Assembly: GCA_010093705.1 (NCBI GenBank)
Contig: MU006092.1
Location: 1,578,111 to 1,642,110 of the forward strand
Reading direction: 5' to 3'
DNA from: Patellaria atrata CBS 101060
Taxonomy: Eukaryota
DNA length: 64,000 nt
In this document: positions 1 through 60,200 of the stretch, piece after piece
How the letters are laid out: each line of letters opens with the position of its first letter
Numbering within the stretch: position 1 is the stretch's first letter
The notes under the pieces: generated by a model
Told to the model about the DNA's origin: nothing
Seen by the model: only the letters and a program-made list of their open reading frames with translations
The model's database searches: none
Made by a program: the position numbers and the translations under genes

Positions 1-1547
1 GTTGAGGGGGAACTAGACGCAATGCTTCGTGAATAACTCCGTTGAGATGCGGAAGTTGAGCAAGTGCGTTCGCATCAGTAACATCAACGTCTTTGATTTC
101 ATCATAAACCTTTTCCGCATCTTTTTGGTGCTTGGCCAAGAAGTACCAGGTGCTGATGAGAGTTGCACGTGCGGTATCACTATCATCGGGCGCATAACCG
201 TTAGTTATAATAATTCTTATTTGAACCTCTTATATCTTACCTGCCGGCCACCACAACTGTTACGGAATTACCGCTTAGAAGCGCTTGACGACTGGCGAGG
301 GTATCGGCTGAAGTTGGCTTATTATACTCATCAATGAACCAAGATGCAATGTTTGTATCCTTGACAGTTTTCTGGTACTTGTCGTCAGTAAGGGACTTCT
401 CATCTAAGGTGCGGTATGACCGACCTTCATCCGCTTCTCCATCTGCTCTTCGCAGAACGCGATCATTCCCAGGAAATCTTTCACTTTTCCTAGCCATGGG
501 AAAAAGGCAAATGCGAACCGAACGATCCAGGGGATATCATTAATAGGAGCAAGCAAAGAAAGAGCTTGGTGTTGGCGCCACATGGCCGGATGCCATTTGT
601 TCGACCTCATCATACCAAAATCTTCACCAAATGTAACTTCTCCCATGGCATCGAAGGAGTACCAAGACATGATATCATTCACATTGACCGGTTCAGCTCC
701 ATAGGAAGCGACACGGTCACCTAGCTTTTCGGTCAATCGTGCGAGCCTTGGAGCATAATCATTGACAGCTGACAGTTTCTGTATCAGCTACCCGCATTAC
801 CAACCCAAGATTCGTGGCGTACCTTTTGTGGACACTGATTGACTCCATATCTTGCGCCTAATCTTGTGGTGTTCTTCATTTCGCGTAAAGATGGATGAAG
901 TGCGTGGCTGCAATATATCATACCATCCATCTTTGTACGTCTTGTTCTTTGGACCGTCGAGGATTTCTACTGCTCCGGTATGGAACACAGTAATCTCATT
1001 AGGGCCTAATGATTATCAGCCACATTCTGTTTGGTATTGGGGGTAACACCAAGCCCTATGAAGCGATCGAGCTAGCTGGACGACTCGTCATGCTGTTCAC
1101 TTGAACATACACCGACAAACCCTTGAGGATTGGGGAATATTTACCTGTACGAACGAAACTACCATACTCCTCGTGTATTCTTGTCATAAGGAGATAATTG
1201 GTGGAGTTCCGATTATGGAAGATTTGCCAAAACTTCGTGACAGCCGCAAGCTTTGGTCCAGGGAAATGACGAAGTCTATGAAAGAAGAGTCGATATATAG
1301 TCATACTCGAGAACAATCCGGCCAGATAGGATGCGAACATCAGTCCAGTAGTGTGGAGCTGCCATCCTGTTCCACCAGATGGGGAGACTTTCGTTACTAG
1401 AATCCACCAAATGCTACACAGGAGCGTGATATGGCCGAAGACGATTGGCTTTGTGCGCATGTGCCATTCCCCATGGATAAACAAGCCTATATGCGCAAGA
1501 ACACCAAACGCGGACGATCCCGCGAACAATATGACTGAAGACAACAT
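1..1547 (-). CDS. Cytochrome P450 monooxygenase, 3' end beyond window edge (exons approx. 1547-1145, 1005-823, 768-425, 377-241, 179-<1)
   Basis: N-terminal TM segments, then YRLFFHRLRHFPGPKLAAVTKFW; spliced junction gives VRTGPNEI; FDAMGEVTFGEDFGMM; spliced I-helix VVVAGSDTA; GT-AG introns keep frame. Confidence 0.95.
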
Positions 1548-2723
1548 TTCAAGAATTTACAACAACTTTGAAGAAGAGAGAAACCCGAGACCATAATCAA
1601 GATACTTTTGTAAGAGCTACTAGTGCTTCCGTGTAGGACAGCCAGCCAGCCGCAACTTTCCACGACCATTATTGCACCCTACTATCTTACCACTCAGACG
1701 CTCCATAAGCGAGAGTTAGAACTAGCTAAGAAGTCGATGGAAGCAACCCATGTCTTACTCGGAGCTGCCCTACAAAGTGCTCAAGGATTACTGTACTATC
1801 CGGCCCCGGTCGATTATTACAGAAAACTAAAAAATACGCAATATCCCGGAATTATCGTTTTCTGGGGGGGAAATCTTATCATGAAAGCTGAATCGCACAG
1901 GCCAAACCCTTTCTAGCGCCTACAAACACGCCGCAGCGCAGCAGTTACGGACAAATTCAACGGGTGTACAGTATCTTGCCTAAGAACGAGTACCTCAATA
2001 ATGCTCTGCATTTTTCATCTACGGTAAATTAATATTTATCTAAAACCGTGTTGCTTTCGCCACAAGTAGGACAAGGAGATGTTGAATGCCTTGCTCCATC
2101 GACCATATTCCACCGTCAACTCTGACTATTATCCCGTCTAGAAATGTCTACCACGCCACATCACCTCAGTGCAAATCAAAGGCTTCCCAAAATGACTGTA
2201 TCCTGCGAATTGCATCTCTAAAAAATGTTCTGCGTCTATAAGCTAATTCATCCCGCGCATAACTGATGCATGTCCAAATACCGCCGACCCGCGCTCAGCT
2301 AAGAACTTAGCAGCGCGGCAGTGTACAAGCTGGGTCACGGACAGCTTTCTGGAAAATAGCCTTTCCGAAACCCTGGCAAAATACCTCTGTCGGGTAGGTT
2401 GATGCTACGAAATCACTTTTGGGTACTGTTGCCGCCGAGACGTAAACTTGGTTTTCTTAAGAAATATTAGGATTGTACAGAAAGGTTTCCATTTGCTTGC
2501 CGGCTTTGAAAGGGAGCGTTGCAAAGTAGTCCGAAATCACTGTCGAAAGTCACAAAGTAGTCCAGCAATTCGGACTTCTTCTCAATTGGTGGTCAGTCTT
2601 GTTCGAACGATCGAATGTTGCTGCACTGCATATGCGACGTTTTGAAGTCAGAAATCCCACGTCCCCGGACAATGCAGTGGAACCGATCACCGCCAGCCGA
2701 TCCTGGATTCCGGGCTCCAATAT

Positions 2724-3710
2724 TTATTGAACCAAGGGCATAGTGTACAGCACAACCTGCCAGAGGCACCACAATTGCCAAGTCCGTCGGTCCATTTTCT
2801 GGTTACGCAGGTAAAGACATCTCCACGCAACATACATGCCCAAAGCCGTTGCCGGGATGCAATTGAGCCATGTCAAATGCCAAAATGAAGTACAAGCAAC
2901 GATCCAGGGTGGAATGGCGAGGGAAACGGTCCACCGAGAAGCCATATCTCCCAGAATTATCGGCGCTGAATTACGTCCGCGAACTCTATCACCTGCTTGG
3001 TCCTGAAGATCCTGCACGTGCATCGTACACATGATAACTCCACTGACAATGTAGGCCCACATATATCCTTCATTCGTAATCGTGGCCGAAGTCCCAAATG
3101 ACGCTGCAACTTTCATGGACCCTATGTTGTACACACCGAAGGCCGCAGCGATAATTGCATTTCGAGAGACGAAGTTCTCGTCACCCCCCCTGAGGTCATT
3201 GTACAACCAGGTGAGGATGAGGATCAGGGCACTCTCGACTCCGACGTCTAGAACATAGTGATTGAACGCAAGGACAAGAGGGATCGAGACGAGCAAGAGC
3301 TGCCGCATCTGATTGGTAGTCATCAACCCCATGGGGATCGGCCGCCATGGTTTATTGAGTTGGTCTTCTTTCGCTGAATCTTCGTTTCGTTGATTGGCGA
3401 GGTCGAAGATAAGGAGGTTCGTCCAGTTGAACAGAATCACCCAGGGCATCTGCTTCATGACATCGAGGAAAGTGCTTTCATTGTCGGCGATGAGACGGCT
3501 TCCAGCAAGAGCACCGCATATTCCGAAGGTTGCATTTGGCCCGACAAACGTTGGAGTATTATCGTAGGTACATCGGTAGAGTATCTCGACGCCGAGTTTC
3601 AGCTGTTGATATAAGCTTCGTCTTGCAGATTTTTGTGGAGTGATCGGTTTATGAATCGATCTATACGAGTCTGAGGTAGCAGTGGCGGTTATTGTCTGCG
3701 TCAAAGCCAT
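2724..3710 (-). CDS. UbiA-superfamily membrane protein, probable UbiA-type terpene cyclase (Fma-TC / beta-trans-bergamotene synthase type)
   Basis: Intronless 328 aa ORF with several hydrophobic helices; motifs ANQRNEDSAKEDQLNKPWRPIP, WLYNDL and VQDLQDQAGDR match the NQ..EDxxNKPxRP / YN / QDxxDxxGD pattern of fungal UbiA-type cyclases. Confidence 0.85.
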   Translation of the reverse strand: MALTQTITATATSDSYRSIHKPITPQKSARRSLYQQLKLGVEILYRCTYDNTPTFVGPNATFGICGALAGSRLIADNESTFLDVMKQMPWVILFNWTNLLIFDLANQRNEDSAKEDQLNKPWRPIPMGLMTTNQMRQLLLVSIPLVLAFNHYVLDVGVESALILILTWLYNDLRGGDENFVSRNAIIAAAFGVYNIGSMKVAASFGTSATITNEGYMWAYIVSGVIMCTMHVQDLQDQAGDRVRGRNSAPIILGDMASRWTVSLAIPPWIVACTSFWHLTWLNCIPATALGMYVAWRCLYLRNQKMDRRTWQLWCLWQVVLYTMPLVQ

Positions 3711-6551
3711 GATTTTCTTTTTCTATGGAGTAGGATTTTAGTTTTACTGACTGCAGGGCCGAATGAGGGTGTGGAGCACTAAAGGGTAAAATCCTCGATA
3801 TTGGAGGAAGATAACATCCCACAGAGACATTTTATAGCGCTGCACAGTGATGGTCCAAGCCTGGAGATTCGCAGTCAACATCAGCCTTGATTTCTCCACT
3901 TGGTCTGAATACTGCCAGACCCCTTGTCCTCCGTACCGGTCATCAAAATAAAGTATAGCCCTGCAACCTTCTGGAGTGAGCTCCCTCTCGGACCATTACT
4001 TCTCGCGTCTGGACTCCGCATCGTCGAATCAGAAGTCAAGATATGAAAATGATAGAACGATGTTAGTACATTATTTTCTATGGTGTGTAAGGTAAGCTAG
4101 ACGGACTGGCGGGCAAGGGCAGAACAGGTAACGGTTCGAATGACACTAAAAGATACTGACACTAAACTCCTAACCGTGCCCCGCTGATGAAGCGCAACAA
4201 AGCGCAAACATCCCACTCTCACGAAAGGAGACAAACATCCAGCACACCGTACGAGGAATCACAGCATGTCGTGCTCAAGTTAAGTTATCTAGTTACATCT
4301 TTTGTCTATGAACACTTCGCCTAGGAGCACAGTCAATATTTCCTTAGTACTTCAACCCGGACGAACTATCAACCAAATAGGTACTCTTTGTCGCTCAGAG
4401 TACAGAAAAAATCGAGAGATACACGATACTCCATATTGACCCCCATACTCTAACGGTGCGGACGCGCGGGATTTTGAAATCGGATCAATCTCATCCGCGG
4501 TATGACGGATGTGGCAGGCAAGTATTGTGCTTCCCTTGATGCTTTTGATATCCTTAGCAGCTCCAACTAGAACTCACTATTCGCCACGGGTGACATCTAA
4601 TGTGATGATTTCCAGCCAATCTCTCCATCAGGGTCACGCACACCTTGAAGAGCGACAGGAGAAGAGTACGAAAACGGCTGCAACGTGTCTCAAGTATCTT
4701 TAGTGAGGCCAATCCGTACCATCCGAGGTGCCCCAATAGTTGTACTAGACTGTACGGAAATAGGGGGGTTCAAGAAGAGCTGACCACATCCACGATGATG
4801 ATTTGTATCTCACCACTGCTCCACAGTACAGTAATCTGCTGTGAGTGTTGTTTGTACTACAACTACCGCATTGTGTATCGGCTGTTCCCGATCAGCAGAG
4901 GAGTAGAGGACCCCTTTGACCTACAACCTGAATCCTTCAGCCTTTCGCTAAAGGCTCTTTACCTGTGGCTCATAATTGCCAAGCTCTTCCCATGTTGGAC
5001 TCTTTGGACGGTAAATTATCGAACTTGGCCCTACGATCCAAATAGTCTCCCGCTCAGAATTTTCCAGTTCTCCAAGTCCTGCAACATGCGCAATCATTGC
5101 CCATTGAGGGTCGACTAAGCACCCAAACCAGAGTGGCAGCTGATGGGCTTAACTGCAACAAGTCAATGTAACAGAAACATACATTTCTCTTTGTCCATAT
5201 TTCTAATTCCAGTCTTCACCATCAGTGATGGCGGGATGCAACGATCATGCGAGACTGAGTTGATGTTATCAACCAACTCCGGCTTGCCGTCCCGCAACTC
5301 GAGACAAACTTCCTTTCATAAACGCCACGGTTAACGCAAGAATTCACGATCGATCGCTTGTGGAACTCCAGCGCTGCGAAACCGAGAGATTGGCCAATGC
5401 AGGCGTTCAACTAAACTGTATCGACTTGACCGTATCGAGCAGAAGGAAGCAACATCGCACACTCACAGAGAAGAATTTGCAAGCAATATCTTTGTCTAGC
5501 ACTGCAATAATCTATTTTGATCGGACCGATGTAGGTCGCACAATTATCAAGAAACCGTTGAAGCAGGGTGGTACATGTACCTGAGCGGCGAACCGAACAA
5601 ATAATGCAAAATTTAGAGTAGAAAAGCGAAAGATTGACAAACTTCCACCTTCCTGTGTGGAGGGATATGGTAGTGGCGTAACTAAGCATCTTGAATGATC
5701 CGGCTAGGACGAGATAAGATCTACTGGATTCATCCTAGCGAATCGCAGGTGTCATACATAGCATTCATCACACGCCACCTTCATATCTCTGAGTCGCTCT
5801 CTAAGCATCGAGCTACTGCAGGAGAGTGCGCAACATAGCCAAATCTCCCTAACACGGGCCGGCGCGGGCACACCATTTCGTGACTCCCGTCCCTAATTCT
5901 GGGTCTGTTCTGGATGTGTTTTGGCTGAAGAGGGCTTGCTGGTATCACTCAGTCCCACAGGTCCAGAGTTCCACAGTCTCCCCTTATGCCATCAGTCCCG
6001 TTTTGTTTCACACCCTTGTCCATTTTCTCTGATGCTGGTCGACTTAACGGTCTTGACGTTGAGTATAATATCTTGCTTTCACATGCGATCTGCGCTTGCT
6101 ATATTGCATAGGCGAAATGATATTCCCTATTTTGCCATACTCTTATACAGTAGCCGTTTCAATGCAATCCTAAACTCAAAGTCAGATATCAAGGCAGATT
6201 CACAGAAAGGAAGGTCGAGGGGTTCCTGGTTCCGTTGTTCAACAGTGGTAGACACGATTGGTTGTGCAAATCACACAAGTGTTACCGGCCTGATAAGAAG
6301 AATTTGCGAAAATATAGCAAGACTATGTTGGATATCATACAAGGACTAGAAAATGCAGTGCCCCTTTTGCTTGCAAATGCTAGGAAACGGACATACCTCG
6401 GAACGCATGTGGCTCCGGATGCTATTAAGATAACGCCATTATAGGATTATTTCGCCCGACCGCCGGACTCCGAATCATCAATCACCCAAAGCACACGCCA
6501 GCCTCCTCATTACCAACCTGAGGTCTATGTACAAAGCTCATAAATCACACG

Positions 6552-7879
6552 TCATGAGAAACCACGCGTGTGCTTTTGTATCTGTTCAAAATTTTCGATG
6601 TCCTCGACACTGATTTCGACGTCACGCTGGAAGCCGATGCCATTCTCGTGCATCGACCTCCTGGGCGTGCCTGCTTCGATTTTGGCGGTGTGCTGACCCT
6701 CGATAAGCTCTACCGGAAACTCTAACGATTCGTCGTCCAGGCGGTTGAACTTATCTCGGTATATGTCGGGGCCGTTGCTGCCAAAGGTACGCGACATATA
6801 CTTGTTCGACCTCGGGTGTGACGGCTTCTTTGAGGATCGGGAGCTGAAAAAGTATGTCTTCACTCTAGGCATGATGTAGCGTGTATACAATGGTGCGAGC
6901 GTCGGTAGGTTGGCGGCCATGATTCCGAGCCACAGTTCGAGATTACTCTGAAGAGAGATGTAATACAGGTTGTAGTTGAAGTCCGTATCGTGTCTCGTCT
7001 GGTAGGTAAACACTATCCGCCAAACCATGATTGCAACGATTCTGCAAGTCTGTTAGTCTCTTATCTTCTTATCAGCTCAATATCGAAGCATCACATACAT
7101 CAGACCAATGCTAAACATTCCGCTCACGAAAAACTTTTTTCTGGTCGGCATCTGCAGTTTCCAAACCATGGGGATTGGGAAGCAAACAACCATCAAATCC
7201 AAGAACATATTCGTGGCCACAGTTCCATATTCCAGGTTGATGAGCGGTCCACAATTCGCAGCATTATACGCGGGGTCAAGACTCCAGAAAGCGTCGATCG
7301 GTTGGCAATTCGTCAAACCGACGGGAATGTAAATGATTGGAAACAGAGCGATGAATCCCATAGCGATGTAAGTTACTTGTCGAAACCGTCTTGTCGTAAA
7401 TATCTGTGTATACAACCACATAACTGCTAATTTACATAGAGTTGTTGCAAGTGTCCAGGTTACGATTGCGGACAACAGCAGCTATTTTTTTTTAAAAAAA
7501 AAAAATCAGCACCAAACTAAGAGACGTTATGCGATAATCTATTCTACGGACCTTCAGTTGTGCTTGAATCTCATGATGCTCCATAGTGGCCAAGTGGGCA
7601 CCGAGTCCATGAGAAATACCTTCGGACAAAGTCAGTCACTGATGTTTTGATATTTGCTACAGTTTGTAAGATATCAATTCGGTTTAACATACCCCAGAGT
7701 GCTGCACCCTCCATAGCCAAGTGACAACACCAAGCAGCAGCGATTAGATAGTCGTCAACTCTAGCTGCCCGCTTCTGAATGAACGCAGACCATATCCGAA
7801 GCACCATTGTGGTAGCTGTGAGGGTCGTGAAGACCACCATCCAGACGATGAGCTTCCATCCTCTATCGCTGACCGTCAT
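6552..7879 (-). CDS. PTH11-like (fungal rhodopsin-domain) integral membrane protein (exons approx. 7879-7693, 7619-7552, 7481-7099, 7041-6552)
   Basis: LRIWS..DDYLI; CKLAVMWLYTQIF; CQPIDAFW; DLMVVCFPIPMVWKLQMPTRKK; ELWLGIMAANLPTL; GT-AG introns keep frame. Confidence 0.9.
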
Positions 7880-9300
7880 TATTGCTGTTTGTAGGTGGTG
7901 ATAATTTCTTAGAGGTCAGCAGCAGTTCTGCGGCACAGTACATGGAGACAGCCTCTACTATATCGTCCCCAAAAAGGCGGCGATTATTTGACACCTTCAG
8001 CGCCATTTATTTTGGGCCGCGTGCTGGTATGCCGGTAGGGCCAAGCTACGGACTTTCCCAAGCTCGGGAATCCAATGCAAGATAGATGAACTGACCAATA
8101 AGAGGGCCTAAATGGAGCATAAAGACCAGGACGGGATGTTCGTCTATGCATCTGTACTGCACTCCCCGAGAGGGTACAGGGCTGACTTGCGAGTGCACAC
8201 CACGCTATGTCAGTGAAATCTCATGGGCTTTGGTAGGACTTGGAAGGTCGTACTGCACGTAGTCCCAGCAGCCTAAACGCATTACAGTTTCTCGTACATC
8301 TGGAGGCGTTGCTTTCATCCCGGTTCTATGGTGTTTGCCCCCTCCTTAATATATACCCTCCCAAGATGCACCATGGTCATGGCCGTCTGTACACGATCTG
8401 TGCACCCTTCTGTACTTCATCCTTTAAAGAGATCTTACCATGGGCGTGGCTCCTGCTGACGTTGGCGACTTCGATCTGCCATTGCTCACAAACCCTATCG
8501 GCCCATGATAGCTGAAAAAGACCGTACAATGGGTTCAACTCTTTGTAAGCTGCCAAATAATATAATCATATTAAAGTTAAGATGGGGGATGAAGACTTCG
8601 CTTTGCAGATATGAAGTAATAGCAACGCTAATAATTCAGTCACAGGAGGTTCTTGAAATATTCTGTACATTCGGGTACTCCGTACACGGTCGTTCTCCGG
8701 AGTCTTGGCAGCGGGTGAATCAAGGGACGTGCGTCGCCCAGCCACGCTAACCTATTTAAAGCTAGACTCCTAGGAGTAACTCACAATCACACCGCAGCAA
8801 CAACCTGTCCCTTCTTTTCCCTTTCTCCACAACATGCTACACCTATAGCAGAAACTCGACGCCGCCGCCACGTCCTTTGTACCTTTCTACCTGTCGTTAG
8901 CACTATCGATTCAAGTTCTCGTCAAGAAGAAACAGGAGGGACATCTCCCTATCTGGAAATCCGGATTCGGCATTGTTTGTTGGGAACTTCCATCCTTCAA
9001 TTTACTTCAGTCACAGTAGAATCGCCGAATCTCTCACTCCTGCTTTGACCATCTCGGCCACTTCTTAGATTGAACTACAAAAAAACATATCCGCGCTGCC
9101 CGAGCGTCCCGACGCACAGGCAGCCTACAGGTACTACCCTTTCTTCAAGGACCTTGTACCTGCACAGTTATTAAGCTGGCCGTTAGCTGCCCCACGTGGG
9201 TGGCGTCTTTGATCCTTCAGCATCTTTTGTTGTGTTTTTATATGCTTGGAGTCCAAGTAGAGCACAACTCTCTCAATTTTTCAATCACACACTAGCAATC

Positions 9301-11097
9301 ATGGGTCATTTCTTTACTCTATCTTCTGTTCTTCTCCTTCCTTTCTTGGTTTCTTCTCTTTCCGAGAAGGATTCTTCTCCACAAGTCGTACTTGACCAAC
9401 CTGATGATCCGACTCCATGCCGTGTGTTCCCAGGGGACAACCTTTGGCCAAAACGATCCGAATGGCAAGAGTTCAATCGAACTTTAGGAGGTAAACTTAT
9501 TGCAACAGTCCCTCTTGCAGCTCCTTGCCATGACAGTGAGTTTGGACCATATGATGAAGAAAAATGCTCCGCGTTAAGGGACGTGTGGTTTCTACCAGGG
9601 ACGCATCTCCATTCCCCCGGATCGGTGATGGCGCCTTTTTTTACAAACAACAGCTGCAACCCTTTCCTTCCTCCCGAGGCTCCGTGCACTCTGGGCGGAC
9701 TTGTCAGCTATTCAGTCAATGCTACTACTGCGGCTGATTATCAGGAGACCATCAAATTCACTCGTCACCACAACATCCGTCTTGTGATTAAGAATACTGG
9801 TCATGACTATAACGGCAAATCAACAGGTGCTGGTGCAGTTGCTCTTTGGACACAGCATCTCAAACGAATTGATCTTGTCAACTATCACAGTGCTCACTAT
9901 AATGGCAAAGCACTCAAGATGGATGCAGGTGTACTCGTTGGTGAAGCCTATGAGTTTGCCGAAAACCATGATATCCTCGTCGTTGGCGGCAATGGCGCTA
10001 CTGTTGGTATGGTAGGTGGGTTTATCCAAGGCGGAGGCCATGGTCCTCTAGCCTCCAACTTCGGTCTGGCTGCCGACCAGGTGCTCGAGTGGGAGGTAGT
10101 CACTGGCGCTGGGGATTACCTTGTTGCAAGTCCTGATAGGAACTCGGATCTGTACTGGGCTCTCCGTGGAGGTGGAGGAGGGACGTTTGCCGCAGTGCTG
10201 TCGGCCACAGTCAAAACCTATCCAGCAAAGAAAGCTTCAGCAGCCACACTATCTTTCCCAAACCTGGGCACCAATGCAGACCAGTTCTACGAAGCCGTTG
10301 AAGTGTTTGTTAAGGGACTTCCAGACCTCGTCGATGCCGGCGTTGTTGCTAATATGGTTATCCTGCCTAACGCGTTTGCGATGCTACCAGCTTCAGCTAC
10401 AGGAGTTACTAAAGAACGACTCGATAAACTTCTTCAGCCTACCATTGACAAGCTCAAAGAAAATGAAATTCCACACCTTTACCAGTCAGAACAGTTCGAT
10501 TCATTCTATTCCAGCTTCAAGGCGATGAGCCAACAGTGGAACGTTTCAGACGCACAGCTTGGTGGCCGTCTGATTCCACGTTCCATTGTTGCGGAGGATC
10601 CAGCTGGATTCACGCGAACAATCCGGAAAATTTCCGAACTTGGTGCTATTTTCGTTGGAGTGTCACTCAACGTCGCACATGGTGTTAAGGATACCAGTGA
10701 AGTAGCTGCTCATCCATTCTGGCGTGAGACTATCATGAACGCGGTACTCGGTGTGCCCTACAACTATACCGACTGGGATACCAACATTGCAATGCGCGCC
10801 CACCTCACCCAGACGCTGCTACCTGAACTAGAGAAGCTAACACCGGATGGAGGCGCTATTTACTTATCGGAATCGGATCCGCAGACGAAGGAGTTCAGGG
10901 AACCATTCTACGGGTCACACTACGACGAGCTAGAGAAAGTCAAGACCAAGTATGATCCCGCAGATATATTCTATGCCTTGGGAGCCGTTGGCAGCGACCG
11001 ATGGGTCGAAGGGCCCGACGGCAGATTATGCAAGAGCGGCCCTGTGGAACCGGCATCATCGAAAGCTTCTAGTGTAGAACAACATGATGAATTGTAA
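9301..11097 (+). CDS. FAD-linked oxidoreductase (BBE-like / VAO-PCMH family) with signal peptide and C-terminal HDEL
   Basis: ATG at 9301 begins a hydrophobic signal peptide; CRVFPGDNLWP; IRLVIKNTGHDYNGKS; GFIQGGGHGPL; LYWALRGGGGG; BBE tail FYGSHYDELEKVKTKYDP; ends VEQHDEL*. Confidence 0.95.
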   Translation: MGHFFTLSSVLLLPFLVSSLSEKDSSPQVVLDQPDDPTPCRVFPGDNLWPKRSEWQEFNRTLGGKLIATVPLAAPCHDSEFGPYDEEKCSALRDVWFLPGTHLHSPGSVMAPFFTNNSCNPFLPPEAPCTLGGLVSYSVNATTAADYQETIKFTRHHNIRLVIKNTGHDYNGKSTGAGAVALWTQHLKRIDLVNYHSAHYNGKALKMDAGVLVGEAYEFAENHDILVVGGNGATVGMVGGFIQGGGHGPLASNFGLAADQVLEWEVVTGAGDYLVASPDRNSDLYWALRGGGGGTFAAVLSATVKTYPAKKASAATLSFPNLGTNADQFYEAVEVFVKGLPDLVDAGVVANMVILPNAFAMLPASATGVTKERLDKLLQPTIDKLKENEIPHLYQSEQFDSFYSSFKAMSQQWNVSDAQLGGRLIPRSIVAEDPAGFTRTIRKISELGAIFVGVSLNVAHGVKDTSEVAAHPFWRETIMNAVLGVPYNYTDWDTNIAMRAHLTQTLLPELEKLTPDGGAIYLSESDPQTKEFREPFYGSHYDELEKVKTKYDPADIFYALGAVGSDRWVEGPDGRLCKSGPVEPASSKASSVEQHDEL

Positions 11098-17953: not shown

Positions 17954-18499
17954 ATGAGATCTTCATTTTTTGTCGCCGTCGCCGCATTTGCGATAGAGAG
18001 AGCTTCGGCTTCTCTGAACTGCACCGCACTGGTTGACATTGACTACTACACTTGCCCGGATACCAATTGCGACAAAGCGGGAACTTATAAGGCGGGAACC
18101 ATGGCGCAGTTCGGTTGCGCATGGGACAATTCTACTGCAACGAAGTAAGTAAAAACGCCCGTTCCCCTGAATACTGCCGTGCTGATTGATCAATCCTATA
18201 GCCGGTGGTTGTGGAATTACAACGAATTTTACACTGCATCAACCTATGAGGTCAAAGACTGCAACTTGAACGGTAGACCATACAACAACACAGATGGTGA
18301 GTTAGTCCTGTGAAGAACGGCCGTGACTCTGCTGATATGCTCAGTCCTGCCTAAATGCAGTCAGGATATTATTGTTCTTGAAATAACGAACAATGCACCG
18401 CTGAAGCCATGCGTCTGTCATCGAAACCAAAGTGCAGTCTCTAGGGTAATGAGACGCCAGATGCAGAAGAAGAGCGCCCCGGTCCCAATTCAATACTGA
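17954..18499 (+). CDS. Small secreted cysteine-rich protein, 146 aa (exons 17954-18144, 18202-18296, 18345-18499)
   Basis: Signal peptide MRSSFFVAVAAFAIERASA; introns gtaagt..tag and gtgagt..cag with gctgat branch sites join into one open frame with 8 Cys. Confidence 0.8.
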
Positions 18500-19014: not shown

Positions 19015-21073
19015 TTAAAATAAATCCGTCATTGCCCCATGTGAGGCGTCGCCTACCAAATGCGCGTACTTCGCCAGTACACCTCTCGTTACGGTCGCCT
19101 TTGGTCTTACCCATATCTTCAGCCGTCTTTTGATCTCCTCATCGCTTACGTTCATACTCAATGTATTCGTCTCGGCGTCTATCGTGATCGTGTCGCCATC
19201 CTCGACTACAGCGATAGGGCCGCCAACCGCAGCCTCAGGCACGATGTGGCCAACGATGAAACCATGGCTAGCTCCCGAGTACCGACCATCTGTGATGAGT
19301 GCTATGTTGGTGAGCTTTGCCCCCATGAGCGCAGCAGATGCCTTTAGTTGCTCAGGCATACCAGGCCCGCCCTTCGGTCCCTCATATCGGACAACAAGGA
19401 CTAGATTCTCACCTCGAGGGATTTGGCCCTTGTTCAAAGCAAGATCAAGTTCAAGCTCTTTATTGAAAACCCGCGCTTTACCAACGAATTTGAGACCTTC
19501 CTTGCCTGTGATCTTCGCCACAGCCCCTTCGGGCGCAAGGTTACCGCGAAGAATCTCGATATGGCCAGTCTTCTTGATTGGGTTATCCAAGGGACGAATA
19601 AGCTGTTGTCCGTCGGGAAGGGAAGGATATGAAGCTACGTTTTCGCCTAGAGTTTTACCTGTCACCGTTGGAACCGCCCCGTCGAGTAATCCAACGGCAA
19701 CGAGCATTTTCATGATGGATGGTGTGCCACCAACCTCGTATAGATCTGTCATAAAGTTTTTGCCGCTAGGAGCAAGATCTGCGAGGAAGGGGATTTTGTT
19801 TGAGACCCTCTGAAAGTCATCAAGTGTCAGTTCCACGCCTGCAGTTCCCGCCATCGCCAACAGGTGGAGCACACCATTCGTTGAGCCTCCAAGGACCATC
19901 ATCATCACCATAGCATTTTCAAACGCGGGCTTCGTAATAAGATCGCTAGGCCGTATATTCTTCTCCATGCAGATACGGATTGCATTGGCTGCTTTAATAC
20001 ATTCCCTCATCTTCTCTGGGGACTCGGCCGGAGTGCTTGATGATCCGGGCAATGTGAGACCCATTGCTTCAATTGCGACTGACATAGTGTTGGCTGTGTA
20101 CATACCTCCGCATGCTCCCGCTCCGGGGCATGCATTACGCTCGATATCGGAGATGATATCGTCTTTAGTATGTGATAGGTTATTTGGGTTTCGTAACGTA
20201 TTGTAGTTATACGCTCCATGTGCTTCATAACATGTGCTAATGTTGATTCGTTTTTCGAGGAGCGTACTGTACCCTGGTTTAATACTGCCTCCATATATCA
20301 TCAGGGACGGACGATTATGCCTAGCGAAAGCCATGATACAGCCTGGCATATTTTTGTCACAGCCCGGGATAGCAATGCAAGCATCGTGGTGTTGAGCACA
20401 TGTTACCGTCTCGATACTGTCAGCAATGATTTCTCTGGTCTGTAACGAGAACCTCATCCCTATGAGCGCCGTGAGTTCCTAGAGTCTCATGATAATTAGA
20501 CCCAGGCATACCTTCACCACCCATCGTGATAGCGTCCGACACACCAATGGTGTTGTATTGCCATGCAAGCATACCCTGCTTCTTGACCGCATCTTTTACA
20601 ATCTTTCCCAGATCCAGCACTATTCACGATGGCTATTAACGGGGCCCGGGAAAATGCGACTGGCGAAGCGGCGATACAGGGATTAAGTTCGTAATGGGTA
20701 TACGTACAGTGCATACTGTCGATCATCAGCTCGTTTGAATCAACCAAGTACCCATCAATAGAGTCACGTACTTGCATGGATTTCCTTCCCACCAGACGGA
20801 CGCAACGCCAACATGAGGGGCAGTCTCCATCATCTCTCTATCAGGGACTCCGGCCGCATATAACATCGCCTAGCATGTATTAAAAGCTTGTATACTTCGT
20901 GGGATTGAGGAATCAACCTGAGCGCCCGGAAAGTCATGAGCTCTGGTTAACGTGGAAGACCACCGATTCAATGCTAGTTTACCGTCTCGAATTGTGTCAG
21001 TCGGCAAGCATGGGAAATCCAGAAACCTGGGCTCTTCAGGTTCTCGGGACTTTTGTATATTTGAAGGATCCAT
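19015..21073 (-). CDS. ilv3: Dihydroxy-acid dehydratase (IlvD/Ilv3 family), paralog without evident mitochondrial presequence (exons 21073-20918, 20869-20772, 20715-20708, 20619-20512, 20459-19015)
   Basis: AQAMLYAAG; WWEGNPCNMHLLDL; GVSDAITMG; PGCDKNMPG; GACGGMYTANTM; GGSTNGVLHL; YEGPKGGPGMPE; TDGRYSGASHG. Confidence 0.97.
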
Positions 21074-22351: not shown

Positions 22352-24550
22352 ATGGAGGCTCATTCGCGCAGATATGGCCTCAGCGGTGTGACGACCAGCA
22401 TTTCGCTGGTATTGACGTTTTGTATTGTCTTAGGCCATTCACTTTCCACGGCCGGAGCTTTGGATACGAGCAGCGAAAGGAGCACATGGATTGTTGATAT
22501 AAATTCGAGGGTCACCTCCTCTGTCCAACGTATTTTCCATATTGTCAACACCAGGTCGACGCAGCGGATCGCATCTTGGGACATGGTGAGATTGTTAACT
22601 TTGTGTGGCGCGGCAACGAGTCTATTATTATGGAGGAGACGATCGAACAAGCAATTTAAGGAAACTTCTCAACGACAACTGACTACAGGCATCTCTGATA
22701 CTGTTGGTGTGGGTACGTAGGATATCTCGTTATCAGCTGAGTGCGAACACAAGGCCTTTACATGATGATCATTTAGTGACGCACGGACAGATGCCGTGAC
22801 TACAGATCCGGGTTTGCTGAAAAAGCATTCCAACTTAGAGTCATATACCGTACCAGGCACTGGCATCACATATCCCGGAATTCGAACTTTTTATCGGCCT
22901 CACCCCCAAGGCCATAAACTCCCGTCTAAACCTAACCCACTTCCTTTACTGGTTTTCGTACATGGTCTGGGTGGTTCTGTTGCTCAATTTCATCCTTTGC
23001 TGACAAGTCTTGTAAATGTCGCACCTTGTCTGAGCATTGATTTTCCCGGCTGTGGACTATCTGAGTTTTCTCCCAAGTCATGGGAAGCTTACACTACTGA
23101 TGCCCTTGTGCAGTTATTAGCAACAGTGATCAATAAGTATCGAGATGCGGAAACAGGACAGCAAATTGTATTCATCGGCCATAGCATGGGATGTTCCATT
23201 GCTACACTTTTAGCATCATCAACTTCTCCATATGCGAATCTGTTGTCATCTCACGTGGTGGGCTTCGTTGCGATATGTCCCAAAGCAGACGCTCTAACGC
23301 TCGAAGAGGCTAAGAAATTCAAGAAGCTCTTGCGTATTCCGGGTCCGATATTTGATTTATGGAGAAAATGGGATCGACGGGGAGGCACCGAGAGCGCTAG
23401 CGTTGCGCGTTTCACAGGACCGAACGCGGAAAACGAAACTAGGAAGCTACAGTTTCGCTTCAACGAGCAGAGCAGAACACCCGTCTGGAGACGTATGACC
23501 ACGGGCATACTTCCAGATTACTCATCTGGAGTCCCGAAAGGTGGTCTTCCTGGGAGAGAAGTTTGGGCTGGCCTTGCTCTGCCCATCTTCTTAGCAGCGG
23601 GAGAATTGGACAAAATTACTCCCGCAAGTGAACTGGAGAAAATAGCCGGCTTTCTTGGGAAATCACCAAACGATGAAATCAGGAAAAAGATAACTCGGGA
23701 TCCAAGCATGTCTGGTCCTGAGATGAAAGATGATAGACTTGATGGAGATGTCCGAACAGACAGTGCGTCCTTCATCTCATCAGAGGATTCGGATATAAAC
23801 AAGTCGGTTCCCGGAGAAACTCTTACATTCCGTCGAAGGGTTCTCAAGAAGATAGTTTTCCCTGCGCCAGCTTCGCACGCTTTGCTCTACGCACCATCCA
23901 CATGCCGTACCCTCGCTGGCTTGATACAAGCGTTTTTCACAGATCACATTGATAAACGCTTATCCCTAGGTTGGCAACTTCAGTATCTCACAACCGAAGG
24001 GAAATGGGATGTGAAGAATCTCGAAAAGTGGAAGGCCGTGAAACCTGTGTCTGAACCGATCGCGGATATCTTTCGTGCTATGAAGACTTTGAGAGAAGTT
24101 GATGAGTATCATTGCCCAAGGGTTTTTGTCGAGCAGTGGAAAGAAAAGATATACGCCATTGTGGATATCAGCCACGAAAGTCCCGTATATGACCCTAGAG
24201 GCTTGGAAATAGGTGGCATTGAGTATCACAAGTTTCCAACCGTTTCGAAGTTACCACCGAGCGTTGATGAGGTCAAGAGCTTCATCGACCTGATTGACGG
24301 CTTACGCGGGGGACAAGCTAGCGTCAGTAACGTTGTCAAATGCGGGCTGATAGGAGTCCATTGCCACTACGGGTTTAATCGCACAGGCTTTTTCATTGTG
24401 TGTTACTTGGTTGAGCGACTTGGATACAGGCTTCAGGATGCACTTGACGAGTTTGAAGGACAGAGACCACCAGGGATTCGTCACGATCATTTCATTGATA
24501 CTTTATTTGTGAGATATTGCACTAGCTTGAAAAGAGCTCCTACATTGTAA
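22352..24550 (+). CDS. Alpha/beta-hydrolase fused to a cysteine (dual-specificity, DUSP11-like) phosphatase domain (exons approx. 22352-22712, 22791-24550; start codon uncertain)
   Basis: FVHGLGG oxyanion motif, GHSMG nucleophile elbow, GELDKIT and ASHALL as candidate triad residues; C-terminal P-loop GVHCHYGFNRTG and RPPGIRH. Confidence 0.92.
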
Positions 24551-55374: not shown

Positions 55375-57276
55375 CTATACTTTACATAATCTCCCATCCT
55401 GCGTGGGCGCTCCTGGGCTCCCTCTAACCTCCCACTCTTCACTCCCTACTCCGGTAATGGCGTAAAAGACCCCCCAAGGATCGGTGGCTTTCTTGATCTG
55501 CAACAGTCTTGCATAATTCTTTCCATAGAAACTCTGCTGAAAATTCGGCTCCTCAGTATCCGCCTCATTCATGTAAGCGCCTGACGTTGGCGTCACATCC
55601 CTCCACTTCTGGATAAACTGATCTAGACGCTTATGGTTCGCGGCCCACTCCGCCGGTGGACCCGTGTACGATGCAGTGTCAAAACCAGTGGCATGTGCCA
55701 CCGCGGTCCGGAATGCCGGGTTCAGCGCAGAGTCAGTGCCGGGCCAGCCGGCAATCTTGTTGGTGGCGCCGAAGTTGACCGAGTGGAACATATATCCACC
55801 GTCTTCGACGAAGGATCGGATTGCGGCGATAGTGTTTTTGAAGAGCGTGCTATTCGGGTTTGCGAAGTTTTCACGGGGGAAGAGCCGAGAGCCGAAGCGA
55901 CTACCACCTCCACCACCGGCGGTGCCGTACCTTGAACGACCGAAGGAGCCGTAGTTGGTGAACGAGCTTGGGCGCGGTATGCTTATCTTTATACCGACCT
56001 CTTCCAAATCAGCATGGAGAGGAGCCATGAATTCAATGGACCTTTCAGCATTCATGCCGGGGAGAGAGGCGGTCAGGGTAAACGAGAAGGAATTACGACC
56101 ACTCGTTCTGATATAATCGTACCCAACACCGCCGGCATCACACATACGATTCACATGAGAAAAGAAGACGTCAATGCCTTTCCAGAAGACTGTTTCTGAG
56201 ACGGTCGTTGTAGAAAACTCTAAGGGGTAGTCCGTTATTTCGATCACAGGGAATGCTTTTAGTACGACCGAAGTCACGATACCGAATGTGCCTCAAATTC
56301 GATTAGTTCAAATTGTTCTAGTTGCAGGTTTCATGGACTTACTCCCTCCTCCACCCCGAAGGGCCCAAAACAGATCCATGTTTTCTGTTGGGGAAACATG
56401 GACGAAACGCCCATCCGCTGTTACCACTTCCAGAGACAATACGTGGTCGCTCATCAGTCCATATAGGGAGGACATAGCAGAATGACCACCTCCTTGGAGA
56501 AAACCACCTGTCAATCCAACCGTAGCACCGCCTGGGCCCGGGATGGTGAAGTTGTAAGTTTCCATAAGGCGGTAAAGTTCGTAGGCCATGTAACCAACTC
56601 CGAGCTTCACTGCACCGCCTCGATACTGTCCTGTACTAAAGTTTGGCAGATATTCAAAATCCTTAAGATGGTGTGTCCACACACTAAGCGAACCGCCGCC
56701 GGTGGACCGTCCTAGGAAGTCATGACCAGTATTCTTGATATTCAACCGCACATTTGCGTTCCTCGCAAAGTTGACCGCCAGCTGGATCTGCTTTACGGAT
56801 GTTGCGTTAACGACATAAGCCGGGTATCCGTTCAGACTGCAAACGCCATCCTCTGGTACAGTTCGTGTCGGGACTGGACATGAATTGCCGGTAGCCCACT
56901 GCGCCATGGTCAAGGTCGGATCGTCTGTAAAGAAGTTACCATTGCGGGAATTGACTCGAACTTGGTTGCATTTTGCTGAGCTGAAGTACTCCCCAGGATA
57001 GCAAACAGCTTGTGGCGGGACACCTGGTAACAAAGCACCTCCCATGCTATCATCTAATGCTTCCCATCTCGATTTACTTGGCCACTTAGAGTCACCGGGA
57101 AATGCTTTGCACTCTTCAGCATTGTTAACCGGAGCGCGAGCGTCCCCGAACGCCAGGTCTGGGTTACCGGCAACATCTGCTTCCGAAAGTTGAGCACGTT
57201 CATACTGGAAGTTGTAGCATGTCACCCTGTGTAGGAGTGCCAGAGCGAGGGGGACGCATGAAGGTGACCAGCGCAT
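55375..57276 (-). CDS. Secreted FAD-linked oxidoreductase (BBE-like) (exons 57276-56343, 56291-55375)
   Basis: Signal peptide; CKAFPGDSKWP; RLNIKNTGHDFLGRS; GFLQGGGHS; LFWALRGGGG|STFG; AYMNEAD..FYGKNYARLLQIKKATDP. Confidence 0.95.
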
Positions 57277-60200
57277 TTTCAAGCTTTCTTTGCTGCTGCG
57301 TCTGAAAAACCACAGGAAAAAGGGAAATGAAGTCGGAACGAGAAGACAGATAGGAATGCTCCCAGTCTAGATTATAAAATCTGTTCGTATCAGAGCTGTT
57401 TTCTGAGAAAGCCCATCTGTCCGGTAAGTCATCAGCGCCCACTCGTGGTCACACCCGAGCGGGTAAAGATACAAGTTTACCATCTGCCTATTGAAATACG
57501 AGAGTACTATGTTACTATGTAGATTTCTATACAGTGAAGTCTGGTCTTCTACCGGAACCCAGCAAACGCGGTGCGTGGTGGAACATTGGCACCAATATAC
57601 ATATATTAACCGTGACCCAAGTACAAGCATCCGCCTAGGATTAGATCGGGTAGAGCTCGTGTCCATAGTAGATAAGAATTTGAAATTTGGTAGGCAAATC
57701 CAGGAATCCGGAATGGGGCAATATCGAAAGGCTCCCACGCCGATAAGTTGGAAGATGAGTGTTGATGAGGCTGTTAATAACTATTTTATAGCTCTAGAAC
57801 TATAGGATTTTCCACCTAACGAAAAACAGTACAGTACTAAATGACGTAGCTATAAATAGGATTCTTTAGCGTAACTATCTGTATTTCATTTACAGAGAGT
57901 AAGTTGCACTTATTAAGGTAGCCTTGGTGCCTTACTGGCGAAGACGCAGTCTTTTGTCAGCGGCGTTCAAAGATTCAATTTGTGACTGTGAAGCAAACCT
58001 GCCAAGGTCCTATCCAGTTCCACTTTCCTGCTCGCAAATGTCAAATCTTCTTCTTGAGTACATTGCATCGGCGGTATTGTCATCCAGAGCATCACCGATG
58101 AGCGAGACCGACCGCCGTCAGGGGAGATTTTCCACACACCTTCGGTCGATGCACCCGCATTTGGCAATCAGTATGACCGCAAATCAACACGGATGCCGGC
58201 AGATATCTTGCTAAAGCTGCTATCAATCATCCACGGCCCGTCGCTGCTACTGTACCTACACTATAGAAGCGAGCAAGCGAGCAAGCGCGATGCCTAAATG
58301 TCGACGAAGACAGACTGCAGCACTAGTCAGGTCGTGGATGCTGATACCTGCATAATCTGATAATATATCTGGGTTGGGTATTTGTATTTCCGCTATTCAT
58401 CCCACCGGCGAAGGTCTTGGCTTAGCCTTGTTCAGAAGCAGATCTTTCGCGGGATAATATAAGAAATTATCTGCTAGTAAAGAGTTAGGTGGTGGGACCG
58501 TGCTATATGTTGAATTATTATGGAGGAGTTGCTTCTGCATGTCGTACTTGTGGGGCCTCACGTCGTAGGATTTATATCGAAGGACAAGGCAATCCAGTCA
58601 GTGAGTAGAAGAAATTTATATTTGCAGCTTTCAGAGAGCCGGTTGAGCAGATGCTTTCCTCGTATGGTTCATACTATTCTGTTCCTTCTCAGCAGTCAGT
58701 CTTCTTAATCACGCTACACGTAGTCCACCAGGATACAAGGATTCCTTTCACATTCCCACCCCTTCATCATTATGTGGGGATTAGATTTCAGGATGGGTTA
58801 AAACCGAATTGTATACTGATCTTTCTTTTTTCTGGAATGCGTCTTCAGTATGGCTGCATTCAGAAGAGAGAAGGTTAATAATGGTCAGATAGTAGACAGC
58901 CAATCCCTTAGGCGAATGGTTCATTTTCAGGTTAAAGTCCCAGTGAGTCCTTCTTTGATGATTGCTGTTCTTGTAACTTTTCAAGTCGTCAATACCAGGC
59001 TTTCAAAATCACACATAAGGCCCGGGGTGTAAGTGCAGCATAAGACGCCGATCGTCCTTTTCAACATCTCTTCCTTGCATACTTATCTGAACTAGCGTCT
59101 CGAATCAGAATGCGAGTCTCTATAGCCATCTTCTAACTTGCTCTCAACTGTCAAGAGTCCTACACCTTCACTATTCCGCACTAGCTCATCATAGTGTATA
59201 TACAAACCATTGAATCGAACAACAACGAGGTACAGTCCCATTCCGTGATCTATGCAATGCTCTACTGGTTTTCTATATTTTCTATTTCAAACCAGATTCC
59301 TGGACGTCAGCTTCAGACCTCGACGATATGCTCCGTTTTCACATACCTGCTATGACCCCTTCATGCAGGGTAACGTACACCGACCTATACCTATCGCCTC
59401 TGAACCGGGGCGAAGCAAGTAGAGTATTGCGCAAATTTTTCTGATTGGACCTCTCTAACGTGTTTTTAAACACAACTGGACATTTACTATTGCTGTTTGC
59501 TACACGAATAAAGCGAATGTACGCTCAAGTTTGTCACTTCCTTATCGCTCCACATTTGAAACTTATTATTTACCATTTCTGTTGCGGAAAGTCTTAAGTT
59601 AGTTGTACAAAGATATACCCTACAGTGTATGGAATATATTAGTGGCGAATTCTCCATCACTGTGCGATGATCGTACCGAGCGCCCCTTCTCACGGTTTCG
59701 ACTTTTCTCCGCTGTAAGCTCGATTGTACTATGTACGCGTTGCTGCGCACACGCGATTTTTAGAGCCGTACAGTTTTCATACGGTGCATGCGTTGTTTCC
59801 AGTCCCGAATCCTTTATAACCATACGCTTCATGTACTATGCACTCTTTGTTGTAGATCTGACTTTTCTACCGGTGGGCAGTCCCGGTATAGTACGCTCCT
59901 CACTCCCTTTCAATATTCCCAATTCGATACGCACTTCATGTGCAGCATTTTCGTTACTAGAATGATAACTCTCTTTACTATAGCATTTGCCTAATTCACG
60001 GTGTACTAATCAGCTTTTCCACGAATATTCTTGTTCATATTTCATATAGTCATCATATTCCCATATTTTTAAGTAAATCATCAATCTCCATTACAGTATG
60101 TTTGTACGTGGTTGCGCGAAAGGTTAATAAATTACGAGATTCCTTGACACATTGTCTGGACTTTATACTAACATGCGGTTGCTATCGCCACGTCCACCCT

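What the first reader, a model, noticed from the sequence alone, without database searches (positions are those of the whole stretch)
1..11097. Probable terpenoid gene cluster built on a non-canonical UbiA-type terpene cyclase
Seen: a P450 (1-1547) co-oriented directly downstream of a UbiA-family gene (2724-3710), then a PTH11-like membrane gene and a BBE-like oxidase, bounded by about 7 kb of gene-poor DNA. Established: membrane UbiA-type cyclases such as Fma-TC of fumagillin biosynthesis make sesquiterpenes, and they are often annotated only as prenyltransferases and missed by cluster finders. Inference: this is the right arm of a cluster making an oxidised sesquiterpenoid. I do not recognise this gene set as a described pathway. 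More genes probably lie left of position 1.
Basis: partly seen in the sequence, partly recalled or inferred. Interest (0 to 1): 0.8.

Follow-up and report, generated by a model that had tools for sequence, protein, structure and literature searches.

The report
Conserved fungal four-gene sesquiterpenoid cluster
This fungus carries a compact set of four genes (a membrane terpene cyclase, two oxidising enzymes and a receptor-like membrane protein) that sit together in many other fungi and probably make one oxidised terpene; it is a plausible new pathway of a familiar kind, and the receptor-like partner is the intriguing part.

Summary
Real and intact. Four genes: a 7-exon P450 (544 aa, ending 512 bases left of the window), an intronless UbiA-type terpene cyclase carrying the cyclase motif QDxxDxxxD (52% identical to a database-named alpha-trans-bergamotene synthase), a PTH11-like membrane gene and a VAO/BBE flavin oxidase. 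It is not the right arm of a larger cluster: zinc-uptake genes, RPN11 and RPD3 follow on the left. Linkage is conserved: all four genes lie within 10 kb of the cyclase in 4 of 20 well-covered metagenome groups, and named genomes (Lineolata, Clonostachys, Trichoderma, Biscogniauxia and others) give neighbouring accessions. Relatives usually add a short-chain dehydrogenase that this locus lacks. Likely working: FPP is cyclised to a bisabolyl-derived skeleton (bergamotene about 40%), hydroxylated by the P450, then oxidised to a carbonyl or lactone. A PTH11-like gene lies beside the cyclase in 12 of 20 groups (background about 4-7%), and the window's copy forms one clade with four cluster-borne copies. 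UbiA-cyclase/P450 clusters are known (HEx, Pb_bis); I found no description of this gene set, but MIBiG and the HEx supplement were out of reach. No expression data.

The parts
1..1547 (-). Cytochrome P450, exons 1-5 (1547-1145, 1005-823, 768-425, 371-241, 179 onward); gene continues to 512 bases left of the window (L002:7488; G000:C4:1577598); 544 aa, heme motif intact
2724..3710 (-). UbiA-type (membrane) terpene cyclase, intronless, 328 aa; motif I N106-QRNEDSAKE-D116, Y170, motif II Q233-DLQDQAG-D241
3711..6551 (.). 2.8 kb gap at the position where the closest relative (L014) carries a short-chain dehydrogenase; no trace of it here
6552..7879 (-). PTH11-like (PF20684 fungal rhodopsin domain) membrane protein without CFEM extension, exons 7879-7693, 7619-7552, 7481-7099, 7041-6552; 375 aa
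7880..9300 (.). Divergent promoter region shared by the PTH11-like gene and the oxidase (divergent also in L014); no shared motif above shuffles
9301..11097 (+). VAO/BBE-type flavin oxidase, intronless, 598 aa, hydrophobic N-terminus (probable signal peptide), five N-glycosylation sequons, FAD-linking His168 kept, Gly232 where most homologues have Cys

Best explanation
A complete, compact sesquiterpenoid gene cluster, one member of a conserved ascomycete cluster family whose fuller form is cyclase + P450 + VAO/BBE oxidase + PTH11-like gene + short-chain dehydrogenase (sometimes a GMC oxidase and an MFS transporter). Mechanism: (1) the membrane cyclase binds Mg-FPP through QDxxDxxxD and motif I and ionises it (motifs shown; activity inferred from family chemistry); (2) 1,6-closure to the bisabolyl cation gives a bergamotene (about 40%), a bisabolene/bisabolol (about 35%) or another skeleton (about 25%) (inferred; my estimates); (3) the ER-anchored P450 hydroxylates the hydrocarbon, possibly several times (enzyme intact: shown; reaction inferred); (4) the probably secreted flavin oxidase turns an alcohol or lactol into an aldehyde, ketone or lactone (inferred from the VAO family); (5) the PTH11-like protein is an inherited companion that most likely senses the product or the condition that calls for it (linkage shown; role speculative). 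With the dehydrogenase missing, the end product here is probably a shorter or differently oxidised congener.
For: Cyclase motif II present, prenyltransferase motif NDxxDxxxD absent. 52% identity to WBQ21654, named (-)-alpha-trans-bergamotene synthase; both lie in one 42-row clade, SH-aLRT 99. AlphaFold model pLDDT 90.7, best folds are UbiA-family structures. Linkage: all four genes within 10 kb in 4 of 20 metagenome groups with at least 12 kb of DNA; closest group L014 has oxidase(-), PTH11-like(+), dehydrogenase(+), cyclase(+), the window's order. An oxidase hit lies beside the cyclase in 7 of 7 tree-placed groups inside the 52-row clade (one a fragment) and 0 of 14 outside it. Neighbouring accessions: Lineolata cyclase KAF2458349, oxidase ..352, P450 ..353; Biscogniauxia KAI1490700/701; Delitschia KAF2199994/990; Plenodomus NX059_007673/672; Trichoderma barbatum KAL7944154/155; Clonostachys byssicola CAG9982814/815; Colletotrichum falcatum KAK2002343/344; Massariosphaeria KAF2870138/143; Cenococcum XTI93013/016. 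No gene has a stop or frameshift.
Against: No expression or chemical data. The bergamotene-synthase name is a database label; I did not see its characterisation, and it sits in a different subclade from the window's protein. The family's dehydrogenase is missing locally and was not found in the genome with one 99-aa query. No transcription factor or transporter in the cluster; no shared promoter word above shuffles. 7 of 21 cyclase-linked oxidases are closer to another paralogue of this genome (C1) than to the window's oxidase. Some pairs are not linked or unclear: Monosporascus CRB-8-3 P450 and cyclase on different contigs, Glonium cyclase and oxidase on two short contigs, Clonostachys chloroleuca and Cenococcum 1.58 accessions far apart. 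P450s of the four complete metagenome clusters are only 28-38% identical to the window's.
Confidence: 0.75

Rival explanations
1. A decaying remnant of the five-gene cluster: genes still open but the pathway no longer works or is silent.
For: Dehydrogenase lost; oxidase has Gly232 where 91 of 120 aligned homologues have Cys; cyclase departs from 13 columns that are at least 80% conserved, including W45Y (35 of 35 others have W), end branch 0.76 against a median of 0.53; L015 keeps only a 100-aa oxidase fragment, so decay happens in this family.
Against: All four frames and splice sites are intact, catalytic motifs kept; cluster-linked oxidases of Colletotrichum and Trichoderma also lack the Cys.
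Confidence: 0.1
2. Only cyclase and P450 form the pathway; the PTH11-like gene and the oxidase are co-inherited passengers without a role in it.
For: Both families are large in this genome (76 PF20684 match rows, roughly 60 genes; 29 oxidase match rows); 8 of 20 well-covered groups show no PTH11-like hit and 14 of 20 no oxidase hit; oxidase orthology is split.
Against: Gene order and orientation differ among L014, L016, L017, L024, L034 and the window, yet the set stays together; the window's PTH11-like protein forms a 100-supported clade with those of L014, L017, L024, L034.
Confidence: 0.1
3. The UbiA protein is an aromatic prenyltransferase (COQ2/AscA type) for a meroterpenoid, as automatic names suggest.
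For: JGI names many hits '4-hydroxybenzoate polyprenyltransferase'; UbiA fold.
Against: NDxxDxxxD absent, QDxxDxxxD present; no PKS or NRPS frame seen in the window or the left flank as far as it was read.
Confidence: 0.03
4. Right arm of a larger cluster, or an aspterric-acid-like cluster with the dihydroxy-acid dehydratase gene at 19015-21073 as self-resistance gene.
For: A second DHAD copy lies about 8 kb from the oxidase; the genome has two copies, 59% alike.
Against: Left flank is zinc uptake and housekeeping. The nearby DHAD has an acidic N-terminus, the other copy an Arg/Ser-rich one, the pattern of the ordinary Ilv3B/Ilv3A pair (PMC3445565); no DHAD hit in any related locus (flanks of 10 kb only).
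Confidence: 0.02

Closest known systems
(-)-alpha-trans-bergamotene synthase, Stachybotrys sp. (WBQ21654.1; name from NCBI nr)
   Same: 52% identity over 305 aa; same motif I spacing, WLYNDL and QDxxDxxGD; same 42-row clade.
   Different: Different subclade; its gene neighbourhood and characterisation were not seen, so the product cannot be transferred.
HEx UTC clusters TC1 (Trichoderma virens) and TC3 (Botrytis cinerea) (PMC5895447, passages)
   Same: UbiA-type cyclase with nearby P450 giving oxidised sesquiterpenoids in yeast; T. virens and B. cinerea homologues are 45% and 50% identical to the window's cyclase, and the T. barbatum homologue adjoins a BBE oxidase.
   Different: The supplement with locus tags and structures could not be read, so whether TC1 or TC3 belong to this very family is open.
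Pb_bis cluster, Penicillium brasilianum (PMC11393291, passages)
   Same: UbiA-type cyclase + P450 + GPCR-like gene in about 7.5 kb; motif I spaced as here (PMC11745945).
   Different: Has a decarboxylase, no BBE oxidase; cyclase makes beta-bisabolene; the GPCR-like gene was only listed, not studied, in the passages read.
Fma-TC of fumagillin; Tps1A/Tps2A of Antrodia (PMC9835599, passages)
   Same: Membrane UbiA-type sesquiterpene cyclases with QDxxDxxxD, tailored by P450s.
   Different: Motif I there is NxxxG/AxxxD; the window has no G/A at that place. Fumagillin cluster has a PKS and MetAP2 (PMC8956814 passage and recall); tps1 has a methyltransferase. Sequences were not in hand for direct comparison.
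MtVAO615 (PDB 6F72), VAO-type flavoprotein oxidase
   Same: Best solved relative of the oxidase, E 2.8e-126, aligned over residues 38-578, FAD His conserved.
   Different: It has Cys where the window has Gly232; its bicovalent FAD and unknown substrate are recalled, not read.

Membership tests
UbiA-type terpene cyclases | UbiA domain and helical membrane fold | tested here: met
   PF01040 74 bits; model pLDDT 90.7; top Foldseek hits DGGGP synthase and AfUbiA
UbiA-type terpene cyclases | Motif II QDxxDxxxD | tested here: met
   Q233-D241; in 119 of 120 sequences checked; definition from PMC9835599
UbiA-type terpene cyclases | Motif I NxxxG/AxxxD | tested here: inconclusive
   N106..D116 with the spacing of Pb_BisA and of WBQ21654, but no G/A; the 'distinct motif I' paper (Luo 2022) was seen only as a reference entry
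UbiA-type terpene cyclases | Catalytic Tyr (Tps1A Y155) | tested here: inconclusive
   Y170 is invariant in 36 aligned sequences; Tps1A itself was not aligned
UbiA-type terpene cyclases | Cyclises FPP | not testable with these tools
   needs expression and GC-MS
UbiA aromatic prenyltransferases (COQ2/MenA type) | First motif NDxxDxxxD | tested here: not met
   no match in P0001
alpha-trans-bergamotene synthases | Same subclade as the named enzyme | tested here: not met
   shares the 42-row clade but not the 6-row subclade, quick tree
Biosynthetic gene cluster | Conserved physical linkage of core and tailoring genes | tested here: met
Biosynthetic gene cluster | Co-expression | not testable with these tools
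   no run on record as RNA
Described (MIBiG) cluster | Gene-for-gene match | not testable with these tools
   no MIBiG search here; nine paper searches gave no match
PTH11-like receptors | PF20684 domain | tested here: met
PTH11-like receptors | Seven transmembrane helices | tested here: inconclusive
   five segments pass a hydropathy threshold of 1.6; not folded
PTH11-like receptors | G-protein coupling, ligand | not testable with these tools
   none
VAO/BBE flavin oxidases | FAD_binding_4 + BBE domains, FAD-linking His | tested here: met
   (His168; His in 119 of 120)
Bicovalent BBE-like oxidases | Second FAD link through Cys | tested here: not met
   Gly232; Cys in 91 of 120
Aspterric-acid-type cluster with DHAD self-resistance gene | Extra copy of the mitochondrial Ilv3A-type DHAD inside the cluster (feature recalled) | tested here: not met
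   nearby copy is Ilv3B-like, 8 kb away

The most novel reading that the evidence does not exclude
UbiA-cyclase clusters carry their own dedicated subfamily of PTH11-like receptors that sense the sesquiterpenoid made by the cluster: a ligand-plus-receptor locus, i.e. a fungal terpenoid signalling or autoregulation module. It would supply candidate ligands for orphan PTH11-like receptors and explain why this cluster needs no transcription factor of its own. Basis: PTH11-like gene beside the cyclase in 12 of 20 groups, beside a second cyclase of this genome (C10) and in Pb_bis; 11 of 13 cyclase-linked copies fall in one subclade (support 82) with the window's copy and one other copy of this genome.
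Probability: 0.15. Interest if true: 0.8.

Novelty: new variant of a known kind. Interest (0 to 1): 0.42.

Why it matters
It defines a widespread, apparently undescribed cluster family (Dothideomycetes, Xylariales, Colletotrichum, Trichoderma, Clonostachys, Botrytis relatives) that is small enough to rebuild in yeast. A review lists 97 fungal bergamotanes, several from the same orders, and calls for isolating their genes (PMC9787638); this family is a concrete candidate source. The steady company of a PTH11-like gene makes a test of ligand and receptor possible. As one more cyclase-P450 cluster it would not surprise a specialist.

Tried and rejected
Larger cluster to the left: rejected after fetching 71 kb of left flank; frames were read fully for the nearest 17 kb and at 150 aa or more for 17-53 kb (part was cut). 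DHAD as self-resistance gene: rejected. Hidden or decayed dehydrogenase in the gaps: no hit better than E 0.2; not found in the genome with one exon query, which does not prove absence. Expression: no RNA holder listed; the two runs laid are probably DNA and say nothing on expression. Shared promoter words: none above controls. The oxidase best-match test counted a 1-kb overlap twice and was redone; only one search is used. The P450 best-match test ran against only 5 P450 loci of this genome and is weak. The nearest own-genome PTH11-like relative (C25) shows no cyclase-like frame within about 10 kb by reading of frames (no family scan). The careful cyclase tree did not finish; the quick tree is used. 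Binomial values for the PTH11-like linkage (1e-9 to 1e-12) ignore shared ancestry and are not relied on. Atlas search gave only the UbiA family. PMC13213483 (AsR6-like cyclase), PMC8956814 (class I bergamotene synthase) and PMC8403587 describe other systems. Earlier findings of the scan: three look-ups, nothing shown. No complex prediction was run.
Full report
What is there. The window is G000:C4:1578111-1642110 of a 28.7-Mb fungal assembly; its closest named relatives for these genes are Dothideomycetes such as Cenococcum, Glonium and Lineolata. Four intact genes occupy 1-11097: a P450 (1547 leftwards, seven exons, 544 aa, I-helix AGSDT, EALR, PERW, heme FNTGSRMCVG; stop 512 bases left of the window), a UbiA-family gene (2724-3710, intronless, 328 aa), a PTH11-like gene (6552-7879, four exons, 375 aa) and a VAO/BBE oxidase (9301-11097). 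The database's own P450 prediction is 99% identical to my model.

Boundaries. Left of the P450, after about 1.5 kb, come a ZIP zinc transporter, an HRXXH-family gene, RPN11 and RPD3; further left lie an MFS gene, a ferric reductase and other genes, with no cyclase, PKS or NRPS among the frames read. On the right, 7.9 kb without a long frame end at a dihydroxy-acid dehydratase gene. So the cluster is these four genes, not a right arm.

The cyclase. PMC9835599 (passages) separates UbiA-type cyclases (NxxxG/AxxxD and QDxxDxxxD) from prenyltransferases (NDxxDxxxD and DxxxD). The window's protein has Q233DLQDQAGD241 and lacks NDxxDxxxD; motif I reads N106QRNEDSAKED116, spaced like Pb_BisA but without the G/A. 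Among 294 homologues (120 listed) one carries a functional name, (-)-alpha-trans-bergamotene synthase of Stachybotrys, 52% identical. In a quick tree of 69 rows both lie in a 42-row clade (99) but in different subclades; B. cinerea BCIN_02g00250 (50%) is also in it and T. virens (45%) is in the sister group. The model (pLDDT 90.7) matches UbiA structures best. Cyclase activity is therefore well supported by family; the skeleton is not determined.

Conserved linkage. A metagenome scan confirmed 212 relatives and returned the best 80 loci, which fall into 38 groups at 90% cyclase identity; 20 groups have at least 12 kb of DNA. Of these 20, 14 have a P450 hit, 6 an oxidase hit (one a fragment), 12 a PTH11-like hit and 4 all three (L016, L017 group, L024, L034). 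The closest group (L014, 54%) has the window's order and orientation of oxidase, PTH11-like gene and cyclase, with a short-chain dehydrogenase in between and no P450 within 10 kb; the P450 cluster closest to the window's exon 5 (77%) has members on contigs of the same lengths as L013's contig and as a contig bearing this group's cyclase and oxidase, so it probably lies just beyond the oxidase, as in Lineolata (accessions 349 cyclase, 352 oxidase, 353 P450). Of 8 non-self P450 hits, 4 share a contig length with a cyclase hit, 3 of them confirmed by close accessions. Cyclase-oxidase pairs with accessions 1-5 apart were seen for Plenodomus, T. barbatum, three Clonostachys species, C. falcatum, Massariosphaeria, Cenococcum and Lineolata; counter-examples or unclear cases are Monosporascus CRB-8-3, Glonium, C. 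chloroleuca and Cenococcum 1.58. Oxidase hits occur in all 7 tree-placed groups inside the 52-row cyclase clade and in none of 14 outside it, and the oxidase tree splits much as the cyclase tree does, although shared descent alone would also give that. An orthologous dehydrogenase (50-65%) is present in L014, L017, L024 and L034 but leaves no trace in the window and was not found elsewhere with one query. GMC oxidases and MFS transporters appear in some relatives (150 of 151 frames scanned).

The oxidase and P450. The oxidase's best solved relative is MtVAO615 (E 2.8e-126). It keeps the FAD-linking His168 but has Gly232 where 91 of 120 aligned sequences have Cys (118 of the 119 non-self hits, P0290 and the window's protein). 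A hydrophobic N-terminus and five sequons suggest the secretory path. Alcohol or lactol oxidation is inferred from the family (knowledge, not tested). 14 of 21 cyclase-linked oxidases match the window's copy best among 6 own-genome loci, 7 match a paralogue on C1. The P450 is 52-60% identical to six nearest full or partial homologues and has no close solved structure.

The PTH11-like companion. This genome has 76 PF20684 match rows, about 60 genes (my count), which puts the chance of one within a 20-kb stretch near 4% (7% at a higher assumed density), against 12 of 20 groups. In a FastTree of 36 partial sequences the window's protein forms a 100-supported clade with the copies of L014, L017, L024 and L034, and 11 of 13 cyclase-linked copies share one weakly supported subclade (82) with it and one unlinked own copy (L033 and four own loci fell under the length limit). 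Best-match tests agree for L014, L017, L024, L034, are a near tie for L041 and point elsewhere for the other 9 of 14. A second cyclase of this genome (C10) also has a P450, a PTH11-like gene of another branch and a methyltransferase beside it. One published cluster, Pb_bis, lists a GPCR-like gene; two searches for a general link between such genes and terpene clusters found nothing to the point (listings only). The linkage is shown; a receptor role is a hypothesis.

What is known. HEx found 326 UbiA-cyclase clusters in a survey of 581 genomes, expressed 13 with nearby P450s and solved products for TC1 (T. virens) and TC3 (B. cinerea) (passages of the preprint and PMC5895447). Its supplement, which holds loci and structures, could not be read and could show that this family has already been expressed. 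A review of 97 fungal bergamotanes lists Pleosporales and Xylariales producers (passages, outline and first third of the tables), the orders rich in this cluster family; this is suggestive only. Nine searches of open-access papers found no description of the cyclase + P450 + BBE oxidase + PTH11-like set; subscription journals and MIBiG were not covered, and Luo et al. 2022 was seen only as a reference entry.

Verdict. A real, intact, four-gene sesquiterpenoid cluster, a reduced form of a conserved five-gene family: confidence 0.75 for the pathway as stated, product skeleton open. New variant of a known kind, interest 0.42; the ligand-plus-receptor reading has probability about 0.15 and would deserve 0.8.

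Noticed in passing
window 19015-21073 (-): Dihydroxy-acid dehydratase with acidic N-terminus (Ilv3B-like); the genome's other copy (G000:C14:500191-501609) has a mitochondrial-type N-terminus, 59% alike. Considered as an astD-like resistance gene and rejected.
   Followed up: yes
L129-L130 (G000:C10:384000-395000): A second small cluster in this genome: divergent UbiA-type cyclase (27% to the window's), intronless P450, PTH11-like gene and a methyltransferase frame.
   Followed up: partly
L127 (G000:C12:98500-108700): A third UbiA-type cyclase (36%) beside an FAD_binding_3 frame, a PIG-L deacetylase and a short-chain dehydrogenase; no P450 hit within the 19 kb fetched.
   Followed up: partly
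L131-L132 (G000:C1:1447971-1449795): BBE oxidase of the sister subfamily that sits beside cyclases in Trichoderma, Colletotrichum, L016, L017, L024 and L034, here with no cyclase hit in 19 kb; a second FAD-binding frame and a weak P450 frame lie 6-9 kb away.
   Followed up: partly
L002:1949-5966 (about 2-6 kb left of the window): Divergent pair of an HRXXH-family (Aspf2/Pra1-like, name recalled) gene and a ZIP zinc transporter, the usual zinc-scavenging locus; marks the cluster's left border.
   Followed up: partly
window 17954-18148 (+): Short frame with a signal-peptide-like start and several cysteines, no Pfam match; probable first exon of a small secreted protein inside the gene-poor stretch.
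   Followed up: no
window 55375-57366 (-): Another BBE-like oxidase (36% to the cluster's), unrelated to the cluster by tree.
   Followed up: partly
L015:8167-8458: Only a 100-aa oxidase fragment beside a 49%-identical cyclase, no P450 or PTH11-like hit in 20 kb: apparently a decayed copy of the cluster.
   Followed up: no
L014:10001-10972: This cyclase allele reads WLYNGL where almost all homologues have WLYNDL.
   Followed up: no
window 22769-24550 (+): Alpha/beta hydrolase fused to a dual-specificity-phosphatase-like domain.
   Followed up: no
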